In this document: positions 14,298 through 39,378 of the stretch, piece by piece
How positions within the stretch are numbered: the first letter of the stretch is position 1
Layout: every line of letters starts with the position of its first letter
NCBI GenBank assembly: GCA_900767825.1
Contig: CAAGAN010000038.1
Span: forward strand, 29,645 to 93,644
DNA from: Bacilli bacterium
GTDB taxonomy: Bacteria > Bacillota_I > Bacilli_A > RFN20 > CAG-826
Length of the DNA stretch: 64,000 nt
Reading direction: 5' to 3'
Position numbers and translations under genes: made by a program
Notes under the pieces: model-generated
Database searches by the model: none
Told to the model about the DNA's origin: nothing
The model's input: only the letters and a program-made list of their open reading frames with translations

Positions 14298-14299
14298 GC

Positions 14300-16064: not shown

Positions 16065-16092
16065 AATGACATGTTTAGTACATAGAAAAGTG

Positions 16093-17424: not shown

Positions 17425-17484
17425 TGATATTGCCTCCTTTTTAAGGAAATTGTATATAAAAATGAGCGATAAGTAAATATGACT

Positions 17485-17633
17485 TGCATCAAATCGGATA
17501 GTCAATTTATCGAAAAATGCATCAAATCGGATAGTCGAAACTTGAAAAAATGCATCAAATCGGATAGTCAATTTATCGAAAAATGCATCAAATCGGATGG
17601 TTAATTTGAGAAAATTTGCATCGAATGGGGACT
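17485..17633. repeat. Five phased direct repeats (17-nt core TGCATCAAATCGGATAG on plus) at an exact 33-bp period, upstream of the ATPase gene
   Basis: Cores start at 17485, 17518, 17551 and 17584, with a degenerate copy at 17617. Spacers 1 and 3 are identical, giving a 66-bp higher-order unit. Confidence 0.9.
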
Positions 17634-17741
17634 TACAATAAGTATGTGTTTTAGGTCCTGAAGACTTGCAAGAAATTTTGTGTTTGAGTAAATAGGATGT
17701 AATAACTGACAAGATAGATATATAGCAGTCACCAATACGCT

Positions 17742-18113: not shown

Positions 18114-18115
18114 TA

Positions 18116-20431: not shown

Positions 20432-20564
20432 AGCTGTAATAAATATAAGAGTTATTTATCTAGCAATAGAATACCAAGAATAAGGATTATTTAAAAGAAT
20501 ACAAGGTTAAAGAAAAGAGACCCTACTTTATCAATAGAGTCCCTTAATAGTTAATCTTTAATGA

Positions 20565-22142: not shown

Positions 22143-22391
22143 GAGTCTCCTTTTCTACCCCTTTTATGTAATAAATAGGTAAATCAGTCTTAATAGACAA
22201 CCTATTTTGATATATAAATATATATATTTCAATACTCTATATACTTAAAATGCGTGATAATCGATTCTTTTTATTTGAATTATTACAAAATAACCAACTT
22301 TGATTTACATTCTAGATAGATGAGTAATCATTTTTAGCATTGTGTATATTAGGTTTTTTCTATGCTTTAATAGGAGTAAATCATTTATTTA

Positions 22392-26036: not shown

Positions 26037-26182
26037 TCAAATCGTCCTTTCTAGATTGATTTTCATCTTTCCGATTATGACTTAAAAATATCTTTATGGT
26101 GTTCCCCTTAAATTTCTACCATTATTATCTCACTATTTATAACTACAAAGAATGATTTGTTGATGCCCCTAAATACAAAATA

Positions 26183-26224
26183 AACCCCCACTACTAATCA
26201 TGATAATGATGTTCATGGGGGTTA
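26183..26224 (-). terminator. Intrinsic terminator after gpmA
   Basis: The minus strand has an AACCCCCA...TGGGGGTT stem (8 bp, large loop) followed by TATTTTGTATTT. Confidence 0.55.
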
Positions 26225-26254
26225 TATATAAATGAATAATATTTAGCTAATTGA

Positions 26255-26962
26255 TTATAGGTAATATTTATCTAGAACCTTTAGATCTTTTTCATCTAGT
26301 TCATAGACAAGTGGCTTACCAGTTGGTATTTCAACAGAGATTATTTGCTCTGGGGTTAGATGTTCTAACATCATAACAATAGCCCTTAAAGAATTACCAT
26401 GTGCTGCAATTAACACTTTCTTGCCTTCTTTGATTAATGGGGCAATCTCACTATCGAAGTATGGTTTAACTCTTTTAGCAGTGTCAATTAGACATTCAGT
26501 TAATGGGCAATCTTCGATAGTCATTTGACCTTCTTTAATAAGGTTTTGGTACTTTTCTTGATTACCTGGCCATCTTTCGTCATCTTTAGTTAATGCTAGA
26601 GGTGGAACATCGGCACTTCTTCTCCAGATATGGACTTGTTCATCGCCCCATTTTTTAGCAGCGTCAGCCTTATTTAATCCTTGTAAGGCTCCATAATGAC
26701 GTTCATTAAGTCTCCAGGAATAATTCTTTGGAATAGAAGTTTCTCCCATTTCTTCCAAAACAAAATCCATCGTGTGGTTAGCTCTCTTTAAGCTAGAAGA
26801 GAACGCTACATCAAAGGTATATCCCTTTTCTTTTAATAACTTACCAGCTTCATGAGCTTCCTTAACCCCATTTGGAGATAATTCGACATCAGTCCAACCA
26901 GTGAATAGATTAAGTAAATTCCATTCAGATTGACCATGTCTTATCAAGACTAATTTAATCAT
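26255..26962 (-). CDS. gpmA: 2,3-bisphosphoglycerate-dependent phosphoglycerate mutase
   Basis: [41 protein letters not shown] and AAHGNSLRA are dPGM hallmarks. Confidence 0.95.
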
Positions 26963-27205
26963 TTCAATTTATCCTTTCGAAACAAGATGAATTATAAATC
27001 AAAGAGTTATTAATCTAAAGAAAGACTTTAGATAGATAATCAAAAAAAGAACTGTTTGTTACTTGATAGAACCGTTGTAACAAATGGTATCCAAGCAAAA
27101 AATCCACCAAACGACATGTTGCTTCTTATTATCTTTTAAATATAAGTCAACAGAAGTTTCGACATGTACCGAAATTAGATACCTATAGCTGCGGAAACAT
27201 ATCAG

Positions 27206-28246
27206 TTATTTACGGTAATACATTGCGTCTTTATACGAACCAATTTTAATAATTTTTTCTTCTTTAAGTAGTTTAGACAAAACCATTTCAATTAATTGCT
27301 CGCTGATATCCGGAAGATGATCTTGAATCCCTTTTTTTGAAATTGGTACAAAAACATTTAGCAAAAGAGTCTCGATTCTTTCGGACTTTGATAATTTCTT
27401 GTCGATTTGAGAAAATACATTTTCATCTAATTTCATATAACATTCATAAAGGATTCGAATCATATAAAGCATGAATGGTTCATAGTTGTTTTTATTGTTT
27501 TGCCATTCAATAGATGATTCTTGAAGGGTTCGATAATATTCACCTTTGTTTTCATTTATCATATTCTCAATTGAAATAAACCTTCCAATATCGAAACCAC
27601 GTTTATATAAAAGCAATAAAGTCAGAAGTCTAGACATTCTTCCGTTTCCGTCATCAAATGGGTGAACGCAAAGAAAATCTAAAATAAAACATGGTATTAA
27701 TAGCAACGGATTAATATTTGCGTTATGGCTTGCTTCGTTAAAAGCAATCAACATTTGGTCAATTGATTCTTCGACTTCTTTTGGGGCGGTAGGAACAAAA
27801 ACAACATATTTTTTTCCATCCCTTGTTTCAGCAATAATATTAGGTTCTTTTTTAAACCGGCCTCTATTCTCACTTTCTGCAACATCTAATAATTGTTTAT
27901 GTAGCGATAAGATAGTCGTTTTATCAAAAATAATTCTTTCGTTAAAGGTGTGAATGTTGTTAAGAACATTTCTATAGCCGATAATTTCTTTTTCAGGATG
28001 TGTAAAGGCGGTGTTATCGCCGGCAGCAATTTCATCAATACGTTTTTCAGTAGTATGGATATTCTCGATGGCATTACTACCTTTGATAGAATCCCTAACG
28101 GCTTTTTCTTTTAACTTTTTGAATAATTTTGGATTGTCTTTTAAACGAACGCTTTCTTTGCCTTTGATATCATAAATAATAGCGGTCAAATTTAGTAATC
28201 TAGCAGGTACTTGGTTTTCTAAAAATGAATAATCGAATTTTCTCAT
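27206..28246 (-). CDS. Fic family protein (AMPylase-type)
   Basis: Canonical Fic motif HPFDDGNGRMSRLL, with an N-terminal Fic_N-like region. Confidence 0.9.
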   Translation of the reverse strand: MRKFDYSFLENQVPARLLNLTAIIYDIKGKESVRLKDNPKLFKKLKEKAVRDSIKGSNAIENIHTTEKRIDEIAAGDNTAFTHPEKEIIGYRNVLNNIHTFNERIIFDKTTILSLHKQLLDVAESENRGRFKKEPNIIAETRDGKKYVVFVPTAPKEVEESIDQMLIAFNEASHNANINPLLLIPCFILDFLCVHPFDDGNGRMSRLLTLLLLYKRGFDIGRFISIENMINENKGEYYRTLQESSIEWQNNKNNYEPFMLYMIRILYECYMKLDENVFSQIDKKLSKSERIETLLLNVFVPISKKGIQDHLPDISEQLIEMVLSKLLKEEKIIKIGSYKDAMYYRK

Positions 28247-28270
28247 TAATGTTTTCTCTTTTCTGCTTAA

Positions 28271-28298
28271 ATTATATCATATTTTAGGCAGTAAACAA
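28271..28298 (-). promoter_or_regulatory. Putative sigma-A promoter for the Fic gene
   Basis: Minus strand: TTGTTT, 16 nt, then TGaTATAAT (extended -10). It is flanked or overlapped by two TACTGCC direct repeats 20 nt apart. Confidence 0.4.
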
Positions 28299-28600
28299 CT
28301 ACTATGGGCAGTATTTCAAAAAGATTTGTTATTTGACAGAGCCGTTGCAATAGGGTCACGTAAAAAGTTCAGAAATTCGTTAAACTATCCTATTTTATTG
28401 CGATAACTTTGTCATCTAACATAAAACCGAGCATCAAACTAAACTAGTTAGATTAATAACTTACTGATTAAATATATTTTAAGGCACTGCTTCTATTTCT
28501 TTAGATTATCAATCATCGTCTTTTTATAAAATTATTAGTAAAGGTCAGAAACGTGATACAATACAGTTAATTATAATTAACTATTAAAGGAGAATTGGAT

Positions 28601-29209
28601 ATGTCTTTCTTTCAAAACACTTGTAAACCAAAAGGAATAGGCGGAAAAATCATGGTAAATATGATGAATATAGGACATTCATCTATGGCTAAATGGGGGT
28701 TTACCCACATAGAGATTAAAAATAATTCTATATGCCTAGATATTGGCTGTGGAGGCGGGGCAAATGTAAAAAGATTATTAGATAAAGTTCCTTATGGCAA
28801 AGTAACCGGGATTGATTATTCAGAAATCAGCGTTATTAAATCAAAAAAGACCAATAAGGCAGGAATAAAAAATAGACGTTGCGAAATCTTGCAAGCTAAC
28901 GTTATGGAATTGCCTTTTGATAATGACTTTTTTGATTTAATAACGGCATTTGAAACAATATATTTCTGGCCTGATATTCTTGAAGCATTTAAGCAAGTAC
29001 ATAGAGTTTTAAAACCAAACGGTACTTTTATGATTTGTAATGAAGTTAACGGAGAAAATCCTAAAGATGAAAACTGGACCAAGATTATAAATGGAATGAA
29101 GATATATAATTCCGAACAAATCAGAAAAACTTTAGAAAGTGCCGGCTTTATCGATATAAAAATAGATAAGAACGGGAAAAACTGGCTTTGTGTTATTTGC
29201 AAAAAATAG
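28601..29209 (+). CDS. Class I SAM-dependent methyltransferase
   Basis: Motif I CLDIGCGGGANV and the post-I acidic residue GIDYS. ATG at 28601 follows AAAGGAGA; the track start at 28595 is a TTG. Confidence 0.85.
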   Translation: MSFFQNTCKPKGIGGKIMVNMMNIGHSSMAKWGFTHIEIKNNSICLDIGCGGGANVKRLLDKVPYGKVTGIDYSEISVIKSKKTNKAGIKNRRCEILQANVMELPFDNDFFDLITAFETIYFWPDILEAFKQVHRVLKPNGTFMICNEVNGENPKDENWTKIINGMKIYNSEQIRKTLESAGFIDIKIDKNGKNWLCVICKK

Positions 29210-29241
29210 ATTTAAAAAACAATAAATGTGTATTAATAGAC

Positions 29242-29913
29242 TTACATTGCCCAGACTAATTCCCCTACTAACTTGACTGCAGGCTTGAAATTAGCGAAAT
29301 ATTCACTTTCATCATTAACATCGGTAATGACTTTAAAAGAAGAGAATTTTACTTTGTATTCATAGGCAATCTCTGCTATGGCAGCAGCTTCCATTTCTAT
29401 TACAAGGGAATTGAATTTGGATTTAATAAAATCCTTATCTTCTTTTGATGCGATGAATTTATCCCCAGTAGATATAATCCCATAGGAATATGGTTTATTT
29501 AATTTATTGCATCCCTTCTCGATTAATTTATTTAATTTATCTGAAGATGGGAAATAAACCATATTAGGTCCACTTACCATGCCTAATGGATCTCCAATTG
29601 GAGTTGTATCGATGTCATATTGGACAAAGCTAGTACCTATAACAATGCCTAATATATCTGCAACATTTTTATCTAGGCTACCAGAAGTACCTACATTAAA
29701 GAAATTATTGTTCCTACCAAATATATTTATAGCAGCTACAAAAGCAGCCCCTGCATGGACTTTACCAATATTAGTAATAACTAAGCCAATATGCTTCTTA
29801 TTCTTCTCTAATTCAAAAATATCAAATCCAGGGCACTTATGTTTATTAATTACATTCGCACCCCTTCTTATGTAATAGGCTTCTTTATTTGTGGCTAGGA
29901 AAAATATATTCAT
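29242..29913 (-). CDS. PNP_UDP_1 family nucleosidase/phosphorylase (MTA/SAH nucleosidase-like)
   Basis: IGKVHAGAAFVAAI, NVGTSGSL and VIEMEAAAIAEIAYEYKV resemble Pfs/MtnN. The N-terminus is atypical, so no gene symbol is assigned. Confidence 0.65.
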   Translation of the reverse strand: MNIFFLATNKEAYYIRRGANVINKHKCPGFDIFELEKNKKHIGLVITNIGKVHAGAAFVAAINIFGRNNNFFNVGTSGSLDKNVADILGIVIGTSFVQYDIDTTPIGDPLGMVSGPNMVYFPSSDKLNKLIEKGCNKLNKPYSYGIISTGDKFIASKEDKDFIKSKFNSLVIEMEAAAIAEIAYEYKVKFSSFKVITDVNDESEYFANFKPAVKLVGELVWAM

Positions 29914-29996
29914 GAAAATAAATATAGCAACTAAGTATTTATTAATCTACTTTTATAAACCCAAAATAAAGCAACATAACAAGGATGGACAAGACG

Positions 29997-30044
29997 ATTT
30001 ATCTTATCATTTATCTACTCATTTATCTTATCATTTATCTTATC
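29997..30044. repeat. Head-to-tail 12-nt tandem array (ATTTATCTTATC x4, one variant unit)
   Basis: Units at 29997, 30009 (ATTTATCTACTC), 30021 and 30033. Confidence 0.9.
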
Positions 30045-30209
30045 ATCCCAAGTTAGCTTAGATGATGAGACCCAAGTAGGAAACGCTTATTTGCTTTATC
30101 AAACGATCCATTAAAACTAATAAATTATATCGATAAACACTTGTTTTTCTTGCTTTGATGTTTCATTTATCTAGTTGTATTTATTCGCCTAAACCCAGTT
30201 TGGAAAGAA

Positions 30210-30245
30210 AATTTATCTTATCATTTATCTTATCATTTATCTTAT
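30210..30245. repeat. Second 12-nt tandem array of the same unit (ATTTATCTTATC x3), same orientation
   Basis: Units at 30210, 30222 and 30234, lying 165 bp from the first array. Confidence 0.9.
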
Positions 30246-30330
30246 CACCTTGATGTTATGCATAAGATTACTTCTAGATATAGCATTAAACATTTTTCTA
30301 AATATAAGTTAGGTTATGCCTAACATAAGT

Positions 30331-30359
30331 AAAGAAAATCCCTGAATATGCATCAGGGA
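30331..30359 (-). terminator. Intrinsic terminator after the 1931-aa helicase gene
   Basis: The minus strand reads TCCCTGA-TGCATAT-TCAGGGA followed by TTTTCTTT, 25 nt after the stop. Confidence 0.75.
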
Positions 30360-30383
30360 AATCCTTTATATCTAATAAATAGA

Positions 30384-33300
30384 TTAATTAATCTTTAAAC
30401 CCATCTTCTTAATGGATTCATATATGTGTCTAGCACTTCTTTCAGTCAATGCTTCATATCCAAATAGATGTAATACTTCCTTGCATAGATCATCAATAGT
30501 AATATCCCCTTGCAAAGCCACTATATCTTCAACACATAATTTAATCTCTTCATAAGGAATATCTACCATCGATCTATCCCCATTAACCCTATAAGAGGTG
30601 ATGGATGAAGGAAGTAAAGAGGAAGAATACCAATATGTATAGGAATTGAATACTATATCAGTCGCCCCAATGGACCTAAGTTCATTCAATATGATTTGGT
30701 ATTTCTTGTTTGTAATCCTACCAACTCCATATATAGCCCTTATCCTTCTTTTTAATAATTCATCAGAAATAGGAGATTCTAAAGATAATATAGAAGGCAA
30801 TACAGTCTTTAAAGAAGGTTTATCCCCAACAAGAGGATAATTTAATTCAGGATAATTGACCTTATGTGGATAAGGATTAGATAAAGTCGCCTTATCAAAT
30901 ACAATCTCTTGTTTCTCTTTCTTATTGGATTTAGAACTTGGGGAGCTTAATGTCTTGATAATATTATCGATAACTACATCTGGATGATCTATATATTCGC
31001 TAGAGAATACCCTTATGCTCTTCCAGTGTAATGCATCTAGCATATTAGGTCCCACTACATTCCTATCATTGCAGGTAGGAGAAGAAACATAGGTATCATC
31101 ATCAGTTAATATACCTAATGCATATTTAGAATTATCTAATGGATCCTTGATTGCTATATCAACCTTAAATGAACTAGTCCCGATATCTAAATCAACCTTA
31201 TAGCCAAGTCTAGTTAGATGAGCTGCCAATGAAGATGCAAAATTGAATTTAATAGGTTTCTTTGCCCATCTAAAATCATTAGTAAGGCTAGTTGGACCAT
31301 TCTCGGCATATAAAAGGAATTGCTTTAGATATTCAGCCCCTTCGTTTTTAGATACCCCGCTTCTAATATCGCTACTTCTACAAGAAGAGAATACAATCAT
31401 CTCTTCTTTTGCCCTAGATACGGCTACATTAAGTCTTCTTTCGCCCTTTTCCCTACTTAATGGACCAAAATTAATAGACATGGTCTTGTTCTTTTTATTC
31501 GGTCCAAAGCAAATAGAAAACAATATGCAATCTCTTTCATCACCTTGTACATTCTCTAGATTCTTGACAAATATTTCTTCTCCGCCTGGATATTTATTAA
31601 GTGAATTATCCTTAGAGAAAGCTTCATCAAGCAAATCATTAATAAGATCCATCTGCTTCTTATTGAATGTAACTATACCTATTGAGCGTTTAGATAATTC
31701 TTTATCCTTACATCTAGATATTACTTCCTTAACAATAGCCTTAGCTTCTTCTTTATTAATACCCCTGCCCATTAGATAATCACCCCCGACATATCTAAAT
31801 TTAACCGCGGATACTTGGTTATATGGGGATGGGAAAGTTGCTAAGGAATTATCATAGAATTTATTATTAGAGAAAGCGATTAATGATTCATGATGTGACC
31901 TATAATGGTAAGTAAGCCTATGTCTAGGCAAATCTAATGCAATCGCATCATCTAATAATGATTCAAGGTCATCATAATTGATGTTATCTTCATTTGAGAT
32001 AGATGAAGATATAGTCGCATTAAAGAAATTAGTCGGAGGCATCTGTTGCTTATCCCCTGCAATAATCGTGGAATCACCTCTAGCAATTGCTCCAATCGCT
32101 TCTGAAGTCGGTATTTGGCTAGCCTCGTCAAATATAACCAAATCAAAATGATGCTTGCTTGGATCGATATATTGGGCGACTGACATTGGGGACATTAGGA
32201 AACATGGGGTATATTTAAATATTAGTTCCCCATATGTATCGAATATGTTCCTAAGAGATTTACCCCTACCTGAAGTTGCCAAAACCTTCCTAAATTGGTA
32301 ATTAGATGAACTAGTCGCATAATGGACATTATCTAGAGGGAATTCCTTTGTTATTTCAAATGCAGTTTCCTTGACTGAAAGTAATCTATATTCATCAATC
32401 GCCTTTTTATATTTATTAATCTTATCTTCTACTTCAAGAGAATTTAGATTTAGCAAATCCTCTTCAAATAAAGAAGAGACCATAATCGAATAGAAAAGGA
32501 CACATTTAAAGGCAGGTTCTAATTCTAATTCATCTAATTTGCCATTTAGATAAGAAGATATAACTGGATTAGGCAAGATAGAAGAAGCTTCATCAATATA
32601 ATTAAGTAACTTAATCCATTCACCTAGGTGCTGGATATCTTCTTTTGCCTTATTTAATAGGCTTATAGATGTTTCATAATATATGTCGTTATCATTTAGA
32701 TTAAATACATCAAAACCCAATGTAGTCTTTAATCTTTCATTCTCTTTCTTTAATCTAGCTAGATTATCTAAGAAAGAGGTAACTTTATTCTCGAATAAAT
32801 ATTCAGGATTAGATGAAACAGAGACAAAATAGCTTTCGATTGGTTTAATATCCAATTTGGAACTAGATTGCATGTTATTAAGCAAATCTAGCATATCCAG
32901 GGTATTCTTTACTTTCTTATATTCAGCCTCTACTTCTACTTTGTTTTTATTAATTAAATAAGAATAGATAAAAGAAGAATAGCCATTAAATGAGGCCATC
33001 TTTTCTTTCTTTTGCTTAACTATCTTTATTAAATTAAGGAAATTAGATATAGATTCATCATTTCTTAAGTCTTTCTTATCCTTGATAAATGGACGTATAG
33101 CCTTCTTTATTTGTTTTCTAGTTCTATTTCTAGCAAAGAAAGATAAAGACGGTAAAGAGGATAACATTCCTAATAAAGAAGATTCATCAATAGATAAACT
33201 AGAAGAAGAATATCTATTAAATAAGATATCTTCATCATTTTTATAATCTAATAGGCATTCAAAATAATTCTTGATGTCAACTTTAGAAGAATAATATGTC

Positions 33301-36179
33301 TTGTTGGTTATTTTAGAATAATCGATGTTATCTTTATTTTCTTTTATTAGATTAAATAAGGATTCCAAAGCGAAAGAATTAGATCTAGATAACTTGATAT
33401 CTAATCCATTCTTATTTACTAGCTCTAGATAAGAATCTTCCAAAGAAAGAAGCAAAGGAAGGATGTTATCGATTTCTTTTTCTAATTTATCCCTAGAGTC
33501 TAAAGAATATTCTCTAGATGTAAAGAAGCTGAAGCAATTTGAATAATATCCACCTAGAGGTATCCCATATAGCTTTATTTTAGAGATGACATCTAGGCAT
33601 TTATTATATTTAGTCTCATCCATCGATTTAGAATAAGATACATCTACATTTCCAATGGTTTTATATTTCTCATAGGCTAAATAATTTAATATAGCCTCAT
33701 ATGGGGAGACAAAATATCCTTTCTTATCATGAAGCCTGGACAATAAAGCATTTAATTCATTTCTAATTGAAAGTAAATTAGAAGCAATTTCTTCTTTATT
33801 TTCATTAGATAAAGTCTTACCAACCTGTAAAGAAGAATTTAATTGGTTCAATACTTCTTTTTTATTAGCTTTTGCTGAATGTATCTGTAAGCAGAATTGC
33901 CCTAGGTTTAATTCGTCTAGCCTTTTCTTAACTACTTGCAAGGCCACTTCTTTTTCAGCGACGAAAAGAACTTTATTATGTTTATATAAAGCGTTGATTA
34001 TTATATTCGCGATAGTTTGGCTTTTACCTGTTCCAGGAGGCCCATCAAGAACAAAAGACTCCCCTAAATCAGAACACTTAATCGCATATAATTGACTTGA
34101 ATCATAAGGAAGAGGCAAGGAAAGTTCCCCTGGCTTAATTTGTTCATCCAATTTAGATATATCTAATTCCTTGGTCTTATTCTTCCAGCACTTCTCCCCC
34201 TTAACAAAAGAAGAGACTACATCATTTTTAATAAAGATATCCTTATATTTCTTGATGTCATTCCACATGACAAAATGGGAGAAAGAGAATAAAGACAAGG
34301 AAGCGACTTCTTCTTCAATAGTCCAGCTCTTATAGGAAGATATCTTTCTCCTAAAGGTATTGAATACTTTCCTTAAATCGATATTAGGATTATCGAAATA
34401 ATTATCAAATTCGCTAAAATCCATATCGAAGTTCTGCTTAAAATATTCAAGCAAGGTTGTATTGAATTGGATTCCATCTAAATCTAATTCGATTTGATAA
34501 TATGGTCCTACCCTTCGCTTTGGCATGGATGCTGGGATTAATAATAAAGGAGAGCAAATCCCATATTTACCATTTTTGGAGCTAGATTCATTATCAAACC
34601 AATTAAGGACACCTAATGTTAAATATAATGGGTTACATCCAGATTCTTCAATCTGGGTCGAGGCTTTTCTAGATAACCCTTTTAAGGCATCTTCGGTTTT
34701 ATTGTTTTTAGAGAATATATTTATAAAGCCTTTTGATAAACTTTCTTTAAAAGAAGAAATAAACGCGTTATCGAAGACATAATAAAGGAAACGTTTGGAA
34801 TTAGTCTCGCTTGAATCATTTGGCAATAAGTTCCACTTCTCTTTCTTTGTAATCATAGAGAAGAATTCATAAGCATCAGAAATACCTAACTGGACATTAG
34901 ATGAACTTATTTTGAAATTGATTAGGTTATTAGACAAATTCAAATCTAATAATCCTTCTTCCCAGACATCGAATTTGGATTTAATAGAAGAACTAGATTC
35001 GATATATCCTGCTTTCTTATTGATTTTATTCAAGGAATAATCAATATCGACATTGACCCCATAATCAATACTAGTCTTGCCATTAATAGTAACTGGAGTT
35101 GGTAAAGGCAATATGCCATCTAACCTAGAAGCTGCTACATCTATAAAGAAACGGAACGGGACAGTAGATAAATATCTTTTCGCATTGTTTTGGCTAGAGA
35201 CAAAATTAACTAGAGTCGAACTAGATGCATCGACCGGATTAAATAAGACTATCCTTTTATTCGTCTCGCTAGAATCATTAGACAATAAAGAAAGATTGTC
35301 GTTAAATCCGCTTTGATAAGTTGCTTCTTCTAGAAAGCAACCAATAAAGGCATGACCATCAACGATAACTAGAAGCGGATTCAATCCGATAGACTCTAAG
35401 CAAGAGGCAAATAATAATGAAAAATCAATACACGTCCCTGCTTTTTCTAATAATAAAGTACGTGGCAAGCGAAGACGTTGGAAAGTTAATTCAAATGATG
35501 CCGGGGGATTTGAATACCTAATTCCTTCTTTTTCAATGGCAAGGTAAATCGAATCGATTTGTTCCATAACCCTATCTGGATCATGGCTTTGATAACCATC
35601 AAATCCATCCGTGTCATATTTTTCTTTTTGTATAATAGCGGCTTTATTTACCACTTCTTTTACCATTTCATCATTAGGAGTGACAAAAGAAGATAAAGTC
35701 TCGAATACAAAATTCTCGCTGGCGGCTTCTTCAATAGGAAGAATCTTCATAGGTAATGAGGAAAAGGCGATTAATTTATTCATAGAAGAATATAATTCGA
35801 CCTTCATATTACCCATGACGGCTTCATTTATTTTATATAGATATTCGGCATCAACATTAATAGAGAAGGAATTTACTTCTGTTACTTTCTTTTTCTCTAG
35901 ACAAGTCAAAATGACTTCATCAGTCGTAATAGATGGGAATGAGAAACTTATTTTTAAAAATGAGCCAAAAATATCTTCTTCTCCATCATTTTTAATAAGT
36001 ACTTTCTTTAAAAAAGAGAAGGAATTCTGTTTATTGGAACTAGATCTAATCTTTCCAATCATCTCGGCTTTATAGTTGACGTAATTAATAGTCGGAGTAG
36101 CTTCGATAGTTAAGGAAATATTATTATTCAAATCCAATTGGGTAACGTTAGTTTCGAGTAGGTTATTATTTTCTTGCAT
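30384..36179 (-). CDS. Giant multidomain protein: transglutaminase-like N-domain + DUF4011 + SF1 UPF1/DNA2-like helicase (AAA_11/AAA_12) + Vsr/DUF559-like REase fold + DUF3320-like tail
   Basis: KAGTCIDFSLLFASCLE...VDGHAFIGCF; LLDLNLSNNLINFK; GPPGTGKSQT; VIFDEASQ; IIAGDKQQMPP; YRSHHESL; NVQGDERD; LNVAVSRAKEE; FKVDIAIKD...ALGILTDDDTY. Confidence 0.85.
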   Translation of the reverse strand: MQENNNLLETNVTQLDLNNNISLTIEATPTINYVNYKAEMIGKIRSSSNKQNSFSFLKKVLIKNDGEEDIFGSFLKISFSFPSITTDEVILTCLEKKKVTEVNSFSINVDAEYLYKINEAVMGNMKVELYSSMNKLIAFSSLPMKILPIEEAASENFVFETLSSFVTPNDEMVKEVVNKAAIIQKEKYDTDGFDGYQSHDPDRVMEQIDSIYLAIEKEGIRYSNPPASFELTFQRLRLPRTLLLEKAGTCIDFSLLFASCLESIGLNPLLVIVDGHAFIGCFLEEATYQSGFNDNLSLLSNDSSETNKRIVLFNPVDASSSTLVNFVSSQNNAKRYLSTVPFRFFIDVAASRLDGILPLPTPVTINGKTSIDYGVNVDIDYSLNKINKKAGYIESSSSIKSKFDVWEEGLLDLNLSNNLINFKISSSNVQLGISDAYEFFSMITKKEKWNLLPNDSSETNSKRFLYYVFDNAFISSFKESLSKGFINIFSKNNKTEDALKGLSRKASTQIEESGCNPLYLTLGVLNWFDNESSSKNGKYGICSPLLLIPASMPKRRVGPYYQIELDLDGIQFNTTLLEYFKQNFDMDFSEFDNYFDNPNIDLRKVFNTFRRKISSYKSWTIEEEVASLSLFSFSHFVMWNDIKKYKDIFIKNDVVSSFVKGEKCWKNKTKELDISKLDEQIKPGELSLPLPYDSSQLYAIKCSDLGESFVLDGPPGTGKSQTIANIIINALYKHNKVLFVAEKEVALQVVKKRLDELNLGQFCLQIHSAKANKKEVLNQLNSSLQVGKTLSNENKEEIASNLLSIRNELNALLSRLHDKKGYFVSPYEAILNYLAYEKYKTIGNVDVSYSKSMDETKYNKCLDVISKIKLYGIPLGGYYSNCFSFFTSREYSLDSRDKLEKEIDNILPLLLSLEDSYLELVNKNGLDIKLSRSNSFALESLFNLIKENKDNIDYSKITNKTYYSSKVDIKNYFECLLDYKNDEDILFNRYSSSSLSIDESSLLGMLSSLPSLSFFARNRTRKQIKKAIRPFIKDKKDLRNDESISNFLNLIKIVKQKKEKMASFNGYSSFIYSYLINKNKVEVEAEYKKVKNTLDMLDLLNNMQSSSKLDIKPIESYFVSVSSNPEYLFENKVTSFLDNLARLKKENERLKTTLGFDVFNLNDNDIYYETSISLLNKAKEDIQHLGEWIKLLNYIDEASSILPNPVISSYLNGKLDELELEPAFKCVLFYSIMVSSLFEEDLLNLNSLEVEDKINKYKKAIDEYRLLSVKETAFEITKEFPLDNVHYATSSSNYQFRKVLATSGRGKSLRNIFDTYGELIFKYTPCFLMSPMSVAQYIDPSKHHFDLVIFDEASQIPTSEAIGAIARGDSTIIAGDKQQMPPTNFFNATISSSISNEDNINYDDLESLLDDAIALDLPRHRLTYHYRSHHESLIAFSNNKFYDNSLATFPSPYNQVSAVKFRYVGGDYLMGRGINKEEAKAIVKEVISRCKDKELSKRSIGIVTFNKKQMDLINDLLDEAFSKDNSLNKYPGGEEIFVKNLENVQGDERDCILFSICFGPNKKNKTMSINFGPLSREKGERRLNVAVSRAKEEMIVFSSCRSSDIRSGVSKNEGAEYLKQFLLYAENGPTSLTNDFRWAKKPIKFNFASSLAAHLTRLGYKVDLDIGTSSFKVDIAIKDPLDNSKYALGILTDDDTYVSSPTCNDRNVVGPNMLDALHWKSIRVFSSEYIDHPDVVIDNIIKTLSSPSSKSNKKEKQEIVFDKATLSNPYPHKVNYPELNYPLVGDKPSLKTVLPSILSLESPISDELLKRRIRAIYGVGRITNKKYQIILNELRSIGATDIVFNSYTYWYSSSLLPSSITSYRVNGDRSMVDIPYEEIKLCVEDIVALQGDITIDDLCKEVLHLFGYEALTERSARHIYESIKKMGLKIN

Positions 36180-36271
36180 AGCAAAAAATATTATAAGGGT
36201 AAAATTTATTTTATTGAATTGCCCTATTGAATTTTTAGCTTTAAAAATAAAGGATTGTGTTAATGATAATT

Positions 36272-37216
36272 TTAAAATGTATCAAATTCTTTTTTTAATA
36301 TTGCAAGAGATTGCAATACATCATCAAAGCACAATTTGTCTTGTTCATTAAAGACATAAATACTTTGCATTTCCAAAAACGATTTTTTAAATTCTTTATC
36401 GTTTGCAAGTTCTGTAAAGTATAGAAAATCGGCAATTTTAACGTTTGCAGGAATCCCGCCTTTTCGATAACTTTCCTCCTTCCGTTCAAGTTCCAAAATT
36501 TTTAGAACGTGAATTTTATCATTCAAAAAATCTCCAATTCGACAATTATTAAGAAGAACGGCAAGGTCATAAACATGTTTGGCGACGTCCCTATAACTTC
36601 TCCTAGAATAGTAAAACTCAGCCGCGAACAGTTTATCTATAAAAATACGCTCGAGCGTAATTGTTTTTATTTCAAACGAATTGACTCCATACTTTTTGCT
36701 CAAAATCGCTTGTTGTTCAGCGCTGGCAAAGTCGTATAAACAAGGTGCTATCCGTAATATTTCCGTCGGCTCGCTAACAGTAAAGCTCGTGGCTTCAATT
36801 TTTACTTTACCAAAGCGTTGAAGCTTGTCAGCATTGCTAAATGAAAACAAAGAATTATAGAAATATTCGCACTCAACGCTGCCGTGATGGCTTTCAATTG
36901 TTTGTCCTTTCCCCAAAAGCTTAAATTTCAAACAGGCGTTATTTAAACGCTTTTTTGCTTGACTTTGCGTAGGGCAATCTTCGACAAATACAGTAAGATC
37001 TATGTCTTCAGAGAATCTACGAATTGATTTAATAGCCTTATATAAAGCAGTGCCGCCTTTAAAATAAGCGTGCGCCTGAAACCTCTTTTTAGATAATTCT
37101 TCTAGCAAAAGAGTGACATAGTAATCTTTTTCCAATATATCGGGCCTTATATGACTTTTTCTTGATACCTCATTAACAATAAATCGAAACGCAGCTTCAT
37201 TAGAATGCAAATTCAT
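36272..37216 (-). CDS. AbiEii/AbiGii family nucleotidyltransferase toxin (type IV TA / abortive infection)
   Basis: ILEKDYYVTLLL and FKGGTALYKAIKSIRRFSEDIDLTV are the family hallmark. Confidence 0.88.
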   Translation of the reverse strand: MNLHSNEAAFRFIVNEVSRKSHIRPDILEKDYYVTLLLEELSKKRFQAHAYFKGGTALYKAIKSIRRFSEDIDLTVFVEDCPTQSQAKKRLNNACLKFKLLGKGQTIESHHGSVECEYFYNSLFSFSNADKLQRFGKVKIEATSFTVSEPTEILRIAPCLYDFASAEQQAILSKKYGVNSFEIKTITLERIFIDKLFAAEFYYSRRSYRDVAKHVYDLAVLLNNCRIGDFLNDKIHVLKILELERKEESYRKGGIPANVKIADFLYFTELANDKEFKKSFLEMQSIYVFNEQDKLCFDDVLQSLAILKKEFDTF

Positions 37217-37219
37217 AAA

Positions 37220-37855
37220 TTATCTATATCTAGCTATTTTTGAAAGACCTAAATATACCTTTCTACTATTATAGTAGGCAGCTAAATGTATTAACGTTTC
37301 AAAATTTAAGTTATTTTTGCTAATTTCTTTTCTTAATATCTCTATATAGTTATTTGCTTCTATCTCTATATTCATCTTGTTATCAAGAATATCTAAAAGC
37401 TGTAGATATCTATAATTATCCTTATCTATTGGAATAACTGGCTTGATAAACCTTATCTTATCTTCTTCGTCCAGGATTGAATATCTAACTTTATTAGTAG
37501 CAACATAGGTCAAACTAGGAATTTGGGTAGTAAGACCGATTTTATTCATATAAGATGGCCCAGATTCATAACCGAACACTTCTTCTTTATGAGACAAATA
37601 TAATCTTTTAATAAGAAGAGTTTTATCTATCTTGCTTAATCCAAATGGGGTAAGAGCCGTCCTATAATAAATACCTTTTTGGTAACGAATAAAGGCATCG
37701 TTAGACTTTTCATAACGTTGCAAAGTCATGTTAAAAGTAGGCTTCTCTATTTTAGTTAACTTGCTTTTTACAAATTCATATATGTCGTTACTAAAAATAG
37801 GAACACCTGCTTCAATGTTCTTAATAAATTCATCAATGCATTTATTAAGGTTCAT
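37220..37855 (-). CDS. AbiEi-like / DUF6088-type antitoxin-transcriptional regulator
   Basis: It ends 3 nt before the AbiEii start, and its size and the QKGIYYR motif are typical of AbiEi-type partners. Confidence 0.65.
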   Translation of the reverse strand: MNLNKCIDEFIKNIEAGVPIFSNDIYEFVKSKLTKIEKPTFNMTLQRYEKSNDAFIRYQKGIYYRTALTPFGLSKIDKTLLIKRLYLSHKEEVFGYESGPSYMNKIGLTTQIPSLTYVATNKVRYSILDEEDKIRFIKPVIPIDKDNYRYLQLLDILDNKMNIEIEANNYIEILRKEISKNNLNFETLIHLAAYYNSRKVYLGLSKIARYR

Positions 37856-37973
37856 CTAATTTCCTCTTAATGATATTATCTTTACATATTTTAATTAATT
37901 TTGCACTTAGAAAATATCAAAACACGAAAATAGGCAATATTTAACTCAAATTTAAAAATGATGTAGATTTTAA

Positions 37974-38033
37974 GGGGTTTAACGGGACTTTTTTGCAAAA
38001 ATTTAAAATTAGTCCCGTTAAACCCCCTTTTTT
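37974..38033 (+). terminator. Very strong 16-bp hairpin plus T-run sitting in a divergent intergenic region (an orphan terminator-like element)
   Basis: GGGGTTTAACGGGACT - 21-nt loop - AGTCCCGTTAAACCCC followed by CTTTTTT. No plus-strand gene lies upstream. Confidence 0.5.
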
Positions 38034-38134
38034 GGTAATTATCCAAAAGAAATTCAAAAATATATTCAAAACACCCTTTTTAACGACCTAAATAGCTTAT
38101 TTATCCAGTATAATTAAATCATCGCGAGGTAATT

Positions 38135-38854
38135 ATGAGACTACTAATAATTCGTCATGCTGATCCAGATTATTCAATTGATTCACTTACTCCACTTGGG
38201 TTTAAGCAAGCTAAAGCACTTGGAAAATATCTAAAAGGTATCCAAATAGATGAAGCCTATATCTCTCCTTTAGGAAGGGCACAGGATACTGCTAGATTAG
38301 GTTTAAAATATAAAAACATCAAACCCATTACATTAAAATGGCTTAGGGAATTTGATTCCACCATCCCTTTTCCTGATGGAAGAAAAAATACCTGGGACTG
38401 GCAAGTAAATGAATGGAGTTCTAGCGAAGAAAGCTATTCAATCGATACTTGGCTAAACCAAGAATTAATTAGCAAGAGCCCAAATATAAAAGAATTATAT
38501 AAAGAAAGAATAGATGGATTAGATGAGTTATTAGCTAAACACGGCTACATTAGAGATGGTAGGAATTATAAGGTAATTAAAGAAAGCCATGAGACTATCG
38601 CCTTATTTTGCCATTTCGGGGTCGAATGTATATTTTTAGCCCACTTATTGCATATATCCCCAATTCTTTTGTGGCATCATTTTGTTGCTACCCCAAGTTC
38701 AGTAACAATAATAAATACAGAAGAAAGAAAGCAAGGATTAGCCTCTTGGAGAGTGTCTTGCTTTGGAGATTTATCGCATCTACATAAATACAATGTAGAG
38801 GAAGCTTTTGCTGCTAGATATTGCGAATGCTATAGCGATCCAACTAGGCATTAA
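38135..38854 (+). CDS. Histidine phosphatase (phosphoglycerate mutase-like) family protein
   Basis: LLIIRHADPDY, SPLGRAQDTA and the second His in LFCHFGV. Confidence 0.85.
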   Translation: MRLLIIRHADPDYSIDSLTPLGFKQAKALGKYLKGIQIDEAYISPLGRAQDTARLGLKYKNIKPITLKWLREFDSTIPFPDGRKNTWDWQVNEWSSSEESYSIDTWLNQELISKSPNIKELYKERIDGLDELLAKHGYIRDGRNYKVIKESHETIALFCHFGVECIFLAHLLHISPILLWHHFVATPSSVTIINTEERKQGLASWRVSCFGDLSHLHKYNVEEAFAARYCECYSDPTRH

Positions 38855-39378
38855 GAAATCTTTTTATTGGATTTAAAACGTGCATAATAGGCATTATCTT
38901 CTTTTAAAGATATCTGGCCCGTGTATCTTTTAGAATTGACTGTATAGGATAAATATAGCTTAGCGTTGCTAGGAATTTTGCTAGTAACTCTAAAAGAAAC
39001 AACGCAGGTCAAACTATCCCCTGGATTAATAAATATCCCATAATGCCCTTCATTATTTTTAAAAACTGCATCCTTAGATGAAGAAGGAAGCAAAGGATAA
39101 TCAATACAATATATTTGCTTTTGCTTTCCTTCGTCCATATATAGCAAGGACAACTCATTAAATACCCTTTTCTTCTTGAATGAAGTCGCGTCTAGATTAA
39201 TCTCTAATCTAATCTCGTCTTGGCTTAATAAATTCATATTGCGGACCCTAAATTCGAAATCCCCACTGAATTTAAGCCTCTCCGCCACTTTGGCTAATAT
39301 AAGCAAAAGAACGACACCTGCAATCGCAGCTATCGAGGCAATGATTGAAGTTGATTTAGAAGCCAAGACAAATAACAT
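38851..39378 (-). CDS. Hypothetical N-terminally anchored membrane protein
   Basis: One N-terminal TM helix (IIASIAAIAGVVLLLILAKV). I recognise no motif. Confidence 0.5.
   Translation of the reverse strand: MLFVLASKSTSIIASIAAIAGVVLLLILAKVAERLKFSGDFEFRVRNMNLLSQDEIRLEINLDATSFKKKRVFNELSLLYMDEGKQKQIYCIDYPLLPSSSKDAVFKNNEGHYGIFINPGDSLTCVVSFRVTSKIPSNAKLYLSYTVNSKRYTGQISLKEDNAYYARFKSNKKIS

What the first reader, a model, noticed from the sequence alone, without database searches (positions are those of the whole stretch)
30384..37855. AbiEi/AbiEii module directly abutting a 1931-aa transglutaminase-like + DUF4011 + UPF1-like helicase + REase-fold giant protein
Seen in sequence: three co-directional minus-strand genes with 3-nt and 92-nt gaps. 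There is no hairpin terminator in 36180-36271, although a TTCAAT-17-TATAAT promoter-like box is present there. The only strong terminator follows the giant gene (30331-30359). The giant ORF has an N-terminal module of about 350 aa with a transglutaminase/cysteine-protease-like core: KAGTCIDFSLLFASCLESIGL, VDGHAFIGCF and FNPVDA give a candidate Cys-His-Asp triad. Next comes the DUF4011-type LLDLNLSNNLINFK, then a full SF1 UPF1/DNA2 motif set. After that is a Vsr/DUF559-like block in which the usual IExDG-type acidic motif reads LTDDD, followed by a long tail. Established knowledge: AbiE is a type IV TA / abortive-infection system. UPF1-like helicases combined with a nuclease define Mokosh-type defence, but I see no PLD HxK motif here. 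Inference: either a composite defence locus, or a Mokosh-like variant whose effector is a protease/transglutaminase-like or Vsr-like domain. By eye the AbiE genes are richer in CG-containing codons than the giant gene, so they may have arrived separately.
Basis: partly seen in the sequence, partly recalled or inferred. Interest (0 to 1): 0.8.

Follow-up and report, generated by a model that had tools for sequence, protein, structure and literature searches.

The report
AbiE toxin–antitoxin beside ProA-like defence helicase
A gut-bacterium chromosome carries an ordinary AbiE toxin–antitoxin pair inserted next to a separate 1931-residue protein of the catalogued "ProA" anti-phage helicase–nuclease family, so this is two neighbouring defence units and not one new system.

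Summary
The three genes, their gaps, the terminator, the promoter-like box and the quoted motifs are all present as described. The giant protein aligns end to end with NCBIfam "anti-phage protein ProA" (1460 bits, curated cut-off 1500). From residue 397 onward it matches PADLOC candidate PDC-S37 (E 9e-290). It is a relative of Hhe and is not Mokosh.

The N-terminal region is a beta-sandwich followed by a transglutaminase/PNGase-like cysteine-hydrolase fold. Cys250 and His276 are each conserved in 114 of 119 full-length proteins compared. This module separates ProA from Hhe.

AbiE is not coupled to the giant gene:
- No AbiE homologue was found in 86 other loci that carry the giant gene.
- Strains with a 99%-identical giant gene carry IetA/IetS plus PDC-S01 in the same slot, with leftover fragments of AbiEi.
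- The giant gene keeps its own conserved 70-bp upstream region.

In this lineage the giant gene is syntenic and under strong purifying selection (dN/dS 0.03). It acts as the fixed flank of a small defence hotspot.

Verdict: a divergent new member of a known kind. No paper on ProA could be found, so the role of the cysteine-hydrolase domain is untested here.

The parts
37220..37855 (-). AbiEi antitoxin/transcriptional regulator gene (211 aa)
   Evidence: PADLOC AbiEi PDLC02247 at E 1.7e-40. NCBIfam TAA_AbiEi gives only 15.9 bits against a cut-off of 150. A strong Shine-Dalgarno sequence (AAGAGGA) precedes the ATG.
36272..37216 (-). AbiEii nucleotidyltransferase toxin gene (314 aa)
   Evidence: Pfam PF08843 at E 8.3e-26 and PADLOC AbiEii PDLC02316 at E 4.8e-114 over the full length. 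The GGTAL and EDIDL motifs are present. It starts 3 nt after the AbiEi stop. CpG observed/expected is 1.47, unlike the backbone genes.
37974..38026 (.). 21-nt inverted repeat (90% complementary, 11-nt spacer) upstream of AbiEi; candidate AbiEi operator or cassette boundary
   Evidence: The segment 37924-38042 survives as a remnant in strains that have lost AbiE.
36180..36250 (-). Conserved upstream region of the giant gene, with TTCAAT-17-TATAAT (36218-36190)
   Evidence: Homology with strains carrying a different upstream cassette resumes at 36250. The box is identical in four strains. The -10 element ends 10 nt before the ATG and there is no Shine-Dalgarno sequence, so a leaderless or near-leaderless transcript is inferred.
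30384..36179 (-). Giant gene (1931 aa): ProA-family / PDC-S37-type helicase-nuclease
   Evidence: NCBIfam antiphage_ProA scores 1460.1 bits (cut-off 1500), aligning aa 49-1909 to model positions 4-1902 of 1903. PADLOC PDC-S37 gives E 8.9e-290 over aa 397-1926. dN/dS is 0.03 against the L001 and L007 orthologues.
35742..36119 (-). N-terminal beta-sandwich domain (aa 21-146)
   Evidence: AlphaFold model with pLDDT 83 and pTM 0.81. Foldseek hits are Ig-like/ML-type sandwiches.
35064..35732 (-). Transglutaminase/PNGase-like cysteine-hydrolase domain (aa 150-372) with Cys250, His276 and Asn314
   Evidence: Domain model with pLDDT 91.7 and pTM 0.90. The leading Foldseek hits are predominantly transglutaminase-fold proteins: PNGase 3esw (probability 1.00), 3kd4, 3isr, PeiW/PeiP, TglA, Rad4/XPC and LapG. 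Of 30 homologues, 16 match Pfam Transglut_core, 6 match DUF553 and 5 match Transglut_core2. The triad C-H-(E/N/D) is present in 113 of 119.
34443..34952 (-). DUF4011 domain (aa 410-579)
   Evidence: Pfam PF13195 at E 1.6e-25.
33735..34106 (-). SF1 helicase N-terminal lobe with Walker A GPPGTGKS (aa 713-720)
   Evidence: Pfam AAA_11. PDB sequence hits to IGHMBP2, UPF1 and Nam7. Motif position.
32160..33734 (-). About 525-aa insertion between Walker A and Walker B (aa 816-1340)
   Evidence: Matches only the ProA model (positions 782-1299) and part of the Hhe model (positions 953-1277).
31383..32159 (-). Helicase Walker B DEASQ (1351-1355), GDKQQMPP, VQGDERD and LNVAVSRAK motifs; AAA_12 lobe
   Evidence: Pfam AAA_12 at E 6e-21. 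Motif positions.
30948..31241 (-). REase_MTES_1575 (Vsr-like fold) nuclease domain (aa 1647-1744)
   Evidence: Pfam PF18741 at E 1.2e-16. D1674, D1693, D1705-R1706, W1719 and D1731 are conserved in the family.
30387..30947 (-). C-terminal tail containing a DUF3320-like segment (aa 1787-1825)
   Evidence: Pfam DUF3320 at E 2.6e-7 on the isolated tail. ProA model positions 1748-1902.
30329..30359 (-). Intrinsic-terminator-like hairpin plus T-run after the giant gene

Best explanation
The region holds two independent units.

(1) AbiE. This is an intact AbiEi/AbiEii type IV toxin-antitoxin / abortive-infection cassette. It occupies a small defence hotspot between a phosphoglycerate-mutase-type gene (38135-38854) and the giant gene.

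(2) The giant gene. It is a stand-alone, single-gene member of a divergent branch of the family that NCBIfam names 'anti-phage protein ProA' and that PADLOC lists as candidate PDC-S37. The family is a relative of Hhe.

Shown here
- The domain order is beta-sandwich, transglutaminase/PNGase-like Cys-His-(Glu/Asp/Asn) hydrolase, DUF4011, UPF1-like SF1 helicase with a roughly 525-aa insertion, Vsr-fold MTES_1575 nuclease, and a DUF3320 tail.
- All helicase motifs and the family's conserved nuclease acidic residues are intact.
- The gene has its own conserved promoter-like region and its own terminator.

Inferred
- As in Hhe-type single-protein systems, the helicase loads on or translocates along nucleic acid produced by phage DNA metabolism, and the nuclease then cuts it.
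- The N-terminal cysteine hydrolase is catalytically active. It serves either as a sensor/licensing module or as a second effector acting on a protein or a protein/sugar conjugate.
- The transcript is probably leaderless.
- In this RF39-type gut Bacilli lineage (closest records are labelled Candidatus Enteromonas, uncultured Bacillales and uncultured Mollicutes) the gene has become a fixed, vertically inherited flank beside which other defence cassettes are swapped (AbiE in some strains, IetAS plus PDC-S01 in others).
For: Family assignment
- The ProA model aligns end to end at 1460 bits, and the N-terminal 404 aa alone match only ProA (245 bits, model positions 4-319).
- Homologues P0114, P0144 and P0147 pass the ProA cut-off at 2088-2325 bits, and the closer relative P0040 passes at 1521.
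- PDC-S37 matches at E 9e-290 and PADLOC Hhe at 2e-133.

Fold and triad
-.

Independence from AbiE
- phmmer found no AbiEi or AbiEii hit at E<=10 in the ORFs of the 86 loci held at that point (L001-L086), each carrying a giant-gene homologue.
- L001 and L007 carry the same flanks and a 99%-identical giant protein. In place of AbiE they carry IetA (5e-42), IetS (4e-64) and PDC-S01 (4e-125), with remnants of the AbiEi 3' end and of its upstream inverted repeat.
- The 70-bp upstream region is conserved whichever cassette is present.
- The exact AbiEii protein was seen on four contigs; wherever there was context, the arrangement was the same as here.

Single-gene architecture and mobility elsewhere
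- All 80 loci kept from the genome scan carry a long ORF through the match: about 1860-2100 aa in most contigs long enough to hold the gene, a few shorter ORFs, and truncated at contig ends in the rest.
- Of the 150 best representative clusters, most are 1900-2000 aa; 8264 clusters match at E<=1e-3.
- Eighty-one plasmids carry the module. In K. pneumoniae pM63-1 the gene lies between IS elements, next to a PDC-S32 gene.

Behaviour of the relative Hhe
- Hhe is a single gene with helicase and nuclease domains. It is triggered by phage DNA-metabolism functions and is toxic when co-expressed with a trigger (10.1101/2024.10.10.617714).
Against: - No publication describing ProA could be found in ten literature searches. 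The anti-phage label therefore rests only on the NCBIfam name and on PADLOC's candidate status.
- The window protein scores 40 bits below NCBI's curated cut-off.
- In this lineage the gene looks core-like. It keeps conserved synteny with capsule, PNP and phosphoglycerate-mutase-type genes across orthologues that are 50-75% identical.
- dN/dS is 0.03 in every domain, which is atypical of fast-evolving defence genes.
- Neighbourhoods elsewhere are mixed, and some are plainly housekeeping (ProRS, GrpE-Hsp70-DnaJ).
- The nuclease lacks the canonical Glu of Vsr/DUF559 proteins.
- One clade has lost both Cys and His yet keeps the domain, so catalysis by the N-terminal module is not universally required.
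- No activity was tested.
Confidence: 0.75

Rival explanations
1. AbiEi, AbiEii and the giant protein form one three-gene defence system, with the AbiEii nucleotidyltransferase working together with the helicase-nuclease.
For: The genes are co-directional with a 92-nt gap and no terminator between them, so read-through is possible.
Against: No AbiE homologues were found next to giant-gene homologues in 86 loci. A 99%-identical giant gene sits behind IetAS in sister strains. The homology break lies 22 nt after the AbiEii stop, and the giant gene's own upstream region is conserved. AbiEii has a different CpG signature.
Confidence: 0.03
2. The giant protein is a Mokosh-type (MkoA/MkoC) variant whose PLD effector has been replaced by a protease-like or Vsr-like domain.
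For: Weak PADLOC MkoA and MkoC matches (E 3e-31 and 5e-27). Both families use UPF1-like SF1 helicases.
Against: The Mko matches cover only the C-terminal helicase lobe (aa 1342-1624). PDC-S37 (9e-290), ProA (1460 bits) and Hhe (2e-133) match far better and over the full length. There is no PLD domain. DUF4011, MTES_1575 and DUF3320 are among the families detected here in the ProA/PDC-S37-type homologues.
Confidence: 0.03
3. In this lineage the giant protein is not an immune protein. It is a conserved genome-maintenance or RNA-surveillance helicase-nuclease that merely lies next to a defence hotspot.
For: Synteny is conserved across orthologues that are 50-75% identical. dN/dS is 0.03 with dS about 0.28, similar to the backbone divergence. 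A large DUF4011 gene is a core gene flanking defence hotspot cDHS1 in all P. aeruginosa isolates (PMC10250203). Some neighbourhoods elsewhere are housekeeping.
Against: NCBIfam names the family anti-phage, and PADLOC lists the core as a defence candidate. Copies occur on 81 plasmids, some flanked by IS elements and next to other defence candidates. Others lie next to AbiU/AIPR genes. Distribution is patchy: 477 hits among 185,579 species representatives, a lower bound because only two peptide patterns were used. The closest validated relative, Hhe, is a defence protein.
Confidence: 0.15
4. The giant protein is simply an orthologue of Hhe (Gao et al. 2020).
For: It shares DUF4011, an SF1 helicase, a Vsr-fold nuclease and a long inter-motif insertion. 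PADLOC Hhe matches at E 2e-133 and NCBIfam Hhe gives 618 bits.
Against: The NCBIfam Hhe cut-off is 2000 bits. The N-terminal 404 aa give no Hhe match at E<=1, whereas they match ProA at 245 bits. ProA and PDC-S37 both score far higher.
Confidence: 0.04

Closest known systems
NCBIfam NF058533.1 'anti-phage protein ProA' (equivalog model, 1903 positions)
   Same: The alignment is end to end, with the same length class (about 1920-1960 aa) and the same order of all modules, including the N-terminal beta-sandwich plus transglutaminase-like domain (model positions 4-319).
   Different: The score is 1460 bits against a cut-off of 1500. The window protein belongs to a divergent low-GC Bacilli branch in which the third triad residue is Asn rather than Glu. 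I could not find the paper behind the name, so ProA's phenotype and mechanism are unknown to me.
PADLOC PDC-S37 (phage-defence candidate, single gene)
   Same: E 8.9e-290 over model positions 4-1533 of 1550, covering DUF4011 through the C-terminus.
   Different: The model does not cover the first 396 residues, which form the beta-sandwich plus transglutaminase-like module. It is a candidate system, not a validated one.
Hhe (single-gene helicase + Vsr-like nuclease defence protein, Gao et al. 2020; NCBIfam NF042953)
   Same: Both have DUF4011, a UPF1-like SF1 helicase with a long insertion, and a Vsr-fold nuclease in a single polypeptide. Hhe's behaviour (indirect activation by phage DNA-metabolism genes, toxicity with a trigger) is the best available functional analogy.
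   Different: The score is 618 bits against a cut-off of 2000, and the N-terminal module gives no Hhe match.
Transglutaminase-fold cysteine hydrolases (PNGase, LapG, PeiW/PeiP, BDI_1141-type 'putative proteases') and the non-catalytic Rad4/XPC transglutaminase-like domain
   Same: The fold matches. Cys sits at a helix N-terminus, His on the next strand, and an acidic or amide residue after the following strand. A beta-sandwich precedes the core, as in 3kd4 and animal transglutaminases.
   Different: Sequence similarity is below Pfam thresholds for this protein (15.2 and 13.1 bits). TM-scores are modest (0.43 at most). The domain is fused to a helicase-nuclease. Stand-alone homologues of the module (about 385 aa) have hydrophobic N-termini with a Cys that read as lipoprotein-type signals (by eye, not run through a predictor).
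AbiE (AbiEi/AbiEii) type IV toxin-antitoxin / abortive infection system
   Same: The gene order is antitoxin then toxin with a 3-nt gap. The AbiEii nucleotidyltransferase domain is present, AbiEi matches the PADLOC model, and an inverted repeat lies upstream.
   Different: Nothing unusual was seen. AbiEi is below NCBIfam's equivalog cut-off, so it is a divergent subfamily.
Mokosh (MkoA+MkoB / MkoC)
   Same: Both use a UPF1-like SF1 helicase core.
   Different: Only the C-terminal helicase lobe matches. There is no PLD nuclease, and the accessory domains differ.

Membership tests
ProA (NCBIfam NF058533.1) | Full-length alignment to the 1903-position model | tested here: met
   aa 49-1909 align to model positions 4-1902 of 1903.
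ProA (NCBIfam NF058533.1) | Score at or above the curated equivalog cut-off (1500 bits) | tested here: not met
   1460.1 bits. The relative P0040 (50% identical) scores 1521.6, and P0114, P0144 and P0147 score 2088-2325. The window protein is a borderline, divergent branch.
ProA (NCBIfam NF058533.1) | N-terminal module (model positions about 4-319) present | tested here: met
   The N-terminal 404 aa alone score 245.3 bits, aligning aa 49-366 to model positions 4-319. No other NCBIfam family matches.
ProA (NCBIfam NF058533.1) | Anti-phage activity | not testable with these tools
PDC-S37 (PADLOC candidate) | Match to PDLC05009 over most of the model, as a single gene | tested here: met
   E 8.9e-290, model positions 4-1533 of 1550. 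Single-gene status is supported by the variable neighbours.
Hhe (NCBIfam NF042953 / PADLOC PDLC02194) | Score at or above the curated cut-off (2000 bits) | tested here: not met
   618.3 bits.
Hhe (NCBIfam NF042953 / PADLOC PDLC02194) | DUF4011 + SF1 helicase + Vsr-fold nuclease in one protein | tested here: met
   Pfam domains.
Hhe (NCBIfam NF042953 / PADLOC PDLC02194) | Homologous N-terminal region | tested here: not met
   aa 1-404 give no Hhe match at E<=1.
Mokosh | PLD-family nuclease (MkoB, or the PLD domain of MkoC) | tested here: not met
   No PLD domain in the Pfam scan of the giant protein or its neighbours.
Mokosh | Full-length match to the MkoA or MkoC model | tested here: not met
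   Only aa 1342-1624 match (E 3e-31 and 5e-27).
Transglutaminase-like / papain-like cysteine hydrolase fold | Pfam Transglut_core or DUF553 at the gathering threshold | tested here: not met
   The query scores 15.2 bits (cut-off 20.5) and 13.1 bits (cut-off 23). Among homologues, 16 of 30 match Transglut_core (best 1.6e-3), 6 match DUF553 (1.2e-5) and 5 match Transglut_core2 (7.5e-5).
Transglutaminase-like / papain-like cysteine hydrolase fold | Three-dimensional fold | tested here: met
   A model with pLDDT 91.7 has as its leading Foldseek PDB hits predominantly transglutaminase-fold proteins (probability 0.9-1.0). E-values (1.6e-3 or weaker) and TM-scores (0.43 or lower) are modest.
Transglutaminase-like / papain-like cysteine hydrolase fold | Conserved Cys-His-(Asp/Glu/Asn) triad in the canonical secondary-structure positions | tested here: met
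   C250 begins helix 250-263, H276 begins strand 276-282, and N314 follows strand 310-313. C-H-(E/N/D) is present in 113 of 119 proteins. The three-dimensional geometry of the triad was not measured.
AbiE type IV TA | AbiEii nucleotidyltransferase (PF08843) adjacent to, and downstream of, an AbiEi regulator | tested here: met

The most novel reading that the evidence does not exclude
ProA-type proteins may be three-enzyme immune proteins. In this reading the conserved transglutaminase/PNGase-like Cys-His-(Glu/Asp/Asn) hydrolase is an active amidase or protease that acts on a protein or on a protein- or sugar-nucleic-acid conjugate. Examples would be a phage terminal protein, a DNA-bound phage factor or a hypermodified base. 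That action would license the fused UPF1-like helicase and Vsr-fold nuclease. In RF39-type gut Bacilli this protein would then have been fixed as a core gene that anchors a defence hotspot. Nothing found here excludes this reading and nothing found here demonstrates it.
Probability: 0.12. Interest if true: 0.7.

Novelty: new member of a known kind. Interest (0 to 1): 0.3.

Why it matters
The work shows that an apparently exotic 'AbiE plus giant protein' locus is two catalogued defence units sitting side by side. It also corrects the family assignment from Mokosh to ProA / PDC-S37.

Three residual points may be of use:
- The beta-sandwich plus transglutaminase-like cysteine-hydrolase module is what distinguishes ProA from Hhe. 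It is conserved in thousands of protein clusters, and its role is untested as far as I could find.
- In a reduced-genome gut lineage the gene behaves like a core gene under strong purifying selection and marks a slot where AbiE and IetAS are exchanged. This resembles the report that a large DUF4011 gene flanks a core defence hotspot in P. aeruginosa.
- The locus offers natural isogenic-like variants (AbiE versus IetAS) for population studies of gut phage defence.

Tried and rejected
- Literature. Ten full-text searches (PDC-S37; ProA with anti-phage, antiphage, defense or defence, helicase, nuclease; DUF4011; Hhe/DUF3320; transglutaminase-like plus helicase) found no paper on ProA or PDC-S37. 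Two candidate hits turned out to be 'proactively' and 'Proaerolysin'.
- PDB sequence search. A profile of the N-terminal alignment found nothing relevant.
- Foldseek on the two-domain N-terminal model. Generic beta-sandwich hits dominated and TM-scores were poor. I therefore modelled the hydrolase domain alone.
- The search for related loci with the broad alignment A2. It failed because no stretch was conserved enough. I repeated it with the tighter alignment A3.
- E. coli homologues with current RefSeq annotation. I searched at DNA level using the Klebsiella plasmid copy as a bridge. Neither megablast nor blastn found a match.
- RNA genes. Rfam on 26000-39000 gave only a sub-threshold group I intron hit (23 bits against a gathering score of 50), taken as chance. 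There are no tRNA genes in the window.
- Antisense ORFs inside the giant gene (31243-31779 and 35611-36075, plus strand). I treated these as chance ORFs in AT-rich DNA.
- An operon or fusion reading of AbiE with the giant gene, and the Mokosh reading. Both were rejected on the comparative data given above.

Full report
**Observation**

A terminator-like hairpin with a T-run follows the giant gene at 30359-30339, and none is reported in the 92-nt gap. The TTCAAT-17-TATAAT box lies at 36218-36190. All the quoted peptide motifs are present.

Pfam places the following on the giant protein:
- DUF4011 at 410-579
- AAA_11 at 692-815
- AAA_12 at 1407-1599
- REase_MTES_1575 at 1647-1744
- a DUF3320 segment at 1787-1825

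There is no PLD domain. The two small genes are an ordinary AbiEi/AbiEii pair. AbiEii matches PF08843 at 8e-26 and the PADLOC AbiEii model at 5e-114. AbiEi matches the PADLOC model at 2e-40.

**What the giant protein is**

NCBIfam's equivalog model NF058533.1, 'anti-phage protein ProA', aligns from residue 49 to 1909 against model positions 4-1902 of 1903. The score is 1460 bits, just under the curated cut-off of 1500. PADLOC's candidate PDC-S37 matches residues 397-1926 at E 9e-290. Hhe matches at 2e-133, and the Mokosh models match only the C-terminal helicase lobe at about 1e-30.

The first 404 residues, scanned alone, match only the ProA model (245 bits, positions 4-319) and give no Hhe match. 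The N-terminal module is therefore what separates ProA from Hhe and from the PDC-S37 model.

More distant homologues from Oscillospiraceae, Pontibacter and a 5.3-Mb genome pass the ProA cut-off comfortably at 2088-2325 bits. A 50%-identical relative passes at 1521 bits. The window protein (1460) and another Bacilli homologue (1467) fall just short. I therefore file it as a divergent branch of ProA, not a clean equivalog.

Ten literature searches found no paper on ProA or PDC-S37. The 'anti-phage' label therefore rests on the database name alone.

**The N-terminal module**

An alignment-based AlphaFold model of residues 1-404 (pLDDT 83, pTM 0.81) shows a beta-sandwich at 21-146 followed by an alpha/beta domain at 160-372. 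The hydrolase domain modelled alone (150-378) reaches pLDDT 91.7 and pTM 0.90.

Its leading Foldseek hits in the PDB are predominantly transglutaminase-fold proteins:
- PNGase (3esw, 2f4m, 1x3w; probability about 1.0)
- the 'putative proteases' 3kd4 and 3isr
- PeiW/PeiP, TglA, LapG and TG2
- the non-catalytic Rad4/XPC domain

E-values are modest (1.6e-3 or weaker) and the best TM-score is 0.43.

By sequence, the query is below the Pfam thresholds. Among 30 homologues, 16 match Transglut_core, 6 match DUF553 and 5 match Transglut_core2.

In 119 full-length proteins:
- Cys250 is present in 114.
- His276 is present in 114.
- The position after the next strand (Asn314 here) is Glu in 69, Asn in 25 and Asp in 24.

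The combination C-H-(E/N/D) occurs in 113 of 119. A small clade has lost both Cys and His yet keeps the domain.

Cys250 opens a helix, His276 opens the next strand, and Asn314 follows the strand after that. This is the canonical layout for the fold.

Stand-alone copies of the two-domain module (about 385 aa) exist; their N-termini are hydrophobic with a Cys and read as lipoprotein-type signals (by eye, not run through a predictor). One copy is fused to FHA and Clp_N domains.

**Helicase and nuclease**

Walker A (GPPGTGKS, 713-720), Walker B (DEASQ, 1351-1355) and the later SF1 motifs are intact. The closest solved sequences are IGHMBP2, UPF1 and Nam7. About 525 residues are inserted between Walker A and Walker B, and this segment matches only the ProA and Hhe models.

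D1674, D1693, D1705-R1706, W1719 and D1731 are conserved in 99-117 of 117 sequences. The domain is under constraint, but it lacks the canonical Glu of Vsr/DUF559 proteins. Whether it cuts nucleic acid is untested.

**Is AbiE coupled to the giant gene?**

It is not.
- A genome scan with the hydrolase-domain alignment found 477 loci among 185,579 species representatives.
- The 80 loci kept all carry a long ORF through the match: about 1860-2100 aa in most contigs long enough to hold the gene, a few shorter, and cut by the contig end in the rest.
- phmmer with the window's AbiEi and AbiEii against all ORFs of the 86 loci fetched by then found nothing, even at E<=10.

Two sister-strain contigs are decisive. 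These are L001 and L007; L007 is the species-representative MAG 'uncultured Bacillales MGYG-HGUT-00664'.
- Both carry the same flanks at about 94% nucleotide identity and a 99%-identical giant protein.
- Between the phosphoglycerate-mutase-type gene and the giant gene they carry PDC-S01 (4e-125) and IetA/IetS (5e-42 and 4e-64) instead of AbiE.
- Only a 145-169-bp remnant of the AbiEi 3' end and a roughly 120-bp remnant of its upstream inverted-repeat region remain.

Homology to the window resumes at 36250, which is 22 nt after the AbiEii stop. The following 70 bp, including the promoter-like box, are conserved in four strains whichever cassette lies upstream. The -10 element ends 10 nt before the ATG and there is no Shine-Dalgarno sequence, so I infer a leaderless or near-leaderless transcript.

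AbiEii has a CpG observed/expected ratio of 1.47. The giant gene has 0.67 and the backbone genes 0.35-0.44. AbiEi (0.70) does not stand out. The exact AbiEii protein occurs on four metagenomic contigs, and wherever there is context the arrangement is the same as here.

**Context and evolution**

The window comes from an RF39-type gut Bacilli lineage. The best-matching records are labelled Candidatus Enteromonas, uncultured Bacillales and uncultured Mollicutes.

Region 12.9-37.9 kb mixes housekeeping genes with defence-type genes:
- PDC-M42, PDC-S27 and PDC-S01
- an nSTAND3 NTPase
- SoFic
- the giant gene and AbiE

In relatives whose orthologue is 50-75% identical, the giant gene keeps the same place. 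FnlA/B/C-type capsule genes lie upstream, and PNP plus a phosphoglycerate-mutase-type gene lie downstream.

Against L001 and L007, dN/dS is 0.03 in every domain, with dS about 0.28. In this lineage the gene therefore behaves like a vertically inherited core gene that flanks a swap site. This resembles the published observation that a large DUF4011 gene is a core flank of defence hotspot cDHS1 in P. aeruginosa (PMC10250203). I did not test whether that Pseudomonas protein is ProA-type.

Elsewhere the family looks mobile or defence-associated:
- Eighty-one plasmids carry it.
- In K. pneumoniae pM63-1 it lies between IS1 and IS3 elements, next to a PDC-S32 gene.
- Other copies sit next to an AIPR/AbiU-like gene or a MoxR-VWA-RtcB cluster.

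Some copies sit in plainly housekeeping settings. A profile search of 1.84 billion cluster representatives found 8264 matches at E<=1e-3, and most of the best 150 are 1900-2000 aa long.

**Mechanism (inference)**

The closest validated relative, Hhe, is a single-gene helicase-nuclease. It appears to be activated indirectly by phage DNA-metabolism functions and is toxic when co-expressed with a trigger.

By analogy, I propose the following. The UPF1-like motor engages nucleic acid made during infection, and the Vsr-fold domain cuts it. The conserved Cys-His-(Glu/Asp/Asn) hydrolase acts as a sensing or licensing module, or as a second effector. None of this was tested.

The main rival is that in this lineage the protein has a genome-maintenance role and no immune role. 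I give that about 0.15.

**Verdict**

The locus is a new, divergent member of a catalogued family sitting beside a standard AbiE cassette. Interest is modest.

Noticed in passing
window 29991-30045 and 30205-30259: Two arrays of a 12-nt tandem unit (ATTTATCTTATC; five copies of a 20-nt probe against 0 expected by chance) lie just downstream of the giant gene. In sister strain L007 a third array is present, and a 453-aa ORF lies between arrays that the window lacks. The ORF is AlbA_2/Schlafen-like by eye, and its C-terminus encodes DKINDKIN from the repeat. The arrays therefore mark a gene gain or loss site.
   Followed up: partly
L001 4938-9871 and L007 (same slot as window 36251-38098): The slot occupied by AbiE in the window holds PDC-S01 (DUF4143 ATPase) and an IetA/IetS (AAA ATPase + S8 protease) system in sister strains, with AbiEi remnants. 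It is a small strain-variable defence hotspot.
   Followed up: yes
window 37974-38026: A 21-nt inverted repeat (GGGGTTTAACGGGACT...AGTCCCGTTAAACCCC) lies between the divergent phosphoglycerate-mutase-type gene and AbiEi. It is retained in strains that lost AbiE. It could be the AbiEi operator, a bidirectional terminator or a cassette boundary.
   Followed up: partly
window 12935-28246: Further defence-type genes are interspersed with housekeeping genes: PDC-M42A/B (DUF3990 + HTH, 12935-14297), PDC-S27 (14300-15742), PDC-S01 (16093-17712), a 1214-aa nSTAND3 NTPase with no PADLOC match (22392-26036), and SoFic (27206-28246).
   Followed up: partly
window 26255-26962 and 38135-38854: Two His_Phos_1 (phosphoglycerate-mutase-type) paralogues bracket the region. 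Only the 26255 copy has orthologues next to the giant gene in related species.
   Followed up: partly
window genes generally (e.g. 29242-29913, 26255-26962, 38135-38854): Backbone genes are strongly CpG-depleted (observed/expected 0.35-0.44). AbiEii, Fic and the STAND gene are not (1.15-1.47). This is a usable marker of recent acquisition in this genome.
   Followed up: partly
homologues P0022-P0029, P0026: The beta-sandwich plus transglutaminase-like module also exists as stand-alone proteins of about 385 aa whose hydrophobic, Cys-containing N-termini read as lipoprotein-type signals (by eye, e.g. in Anaerolineae). One protein fuses it to FHA and Clp_N domains.
   Followed up: no
L087 3446-7752 and L090 1-7350: Some ProA homologues lie directly downstream of a GrpE-Hsp70-TPR-DnaJ cluster or a MoxR-DUF5682-VWA-RtcB cluster. 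It was not examined whether these are conflict systems linked to ProA.
   Followed up: no
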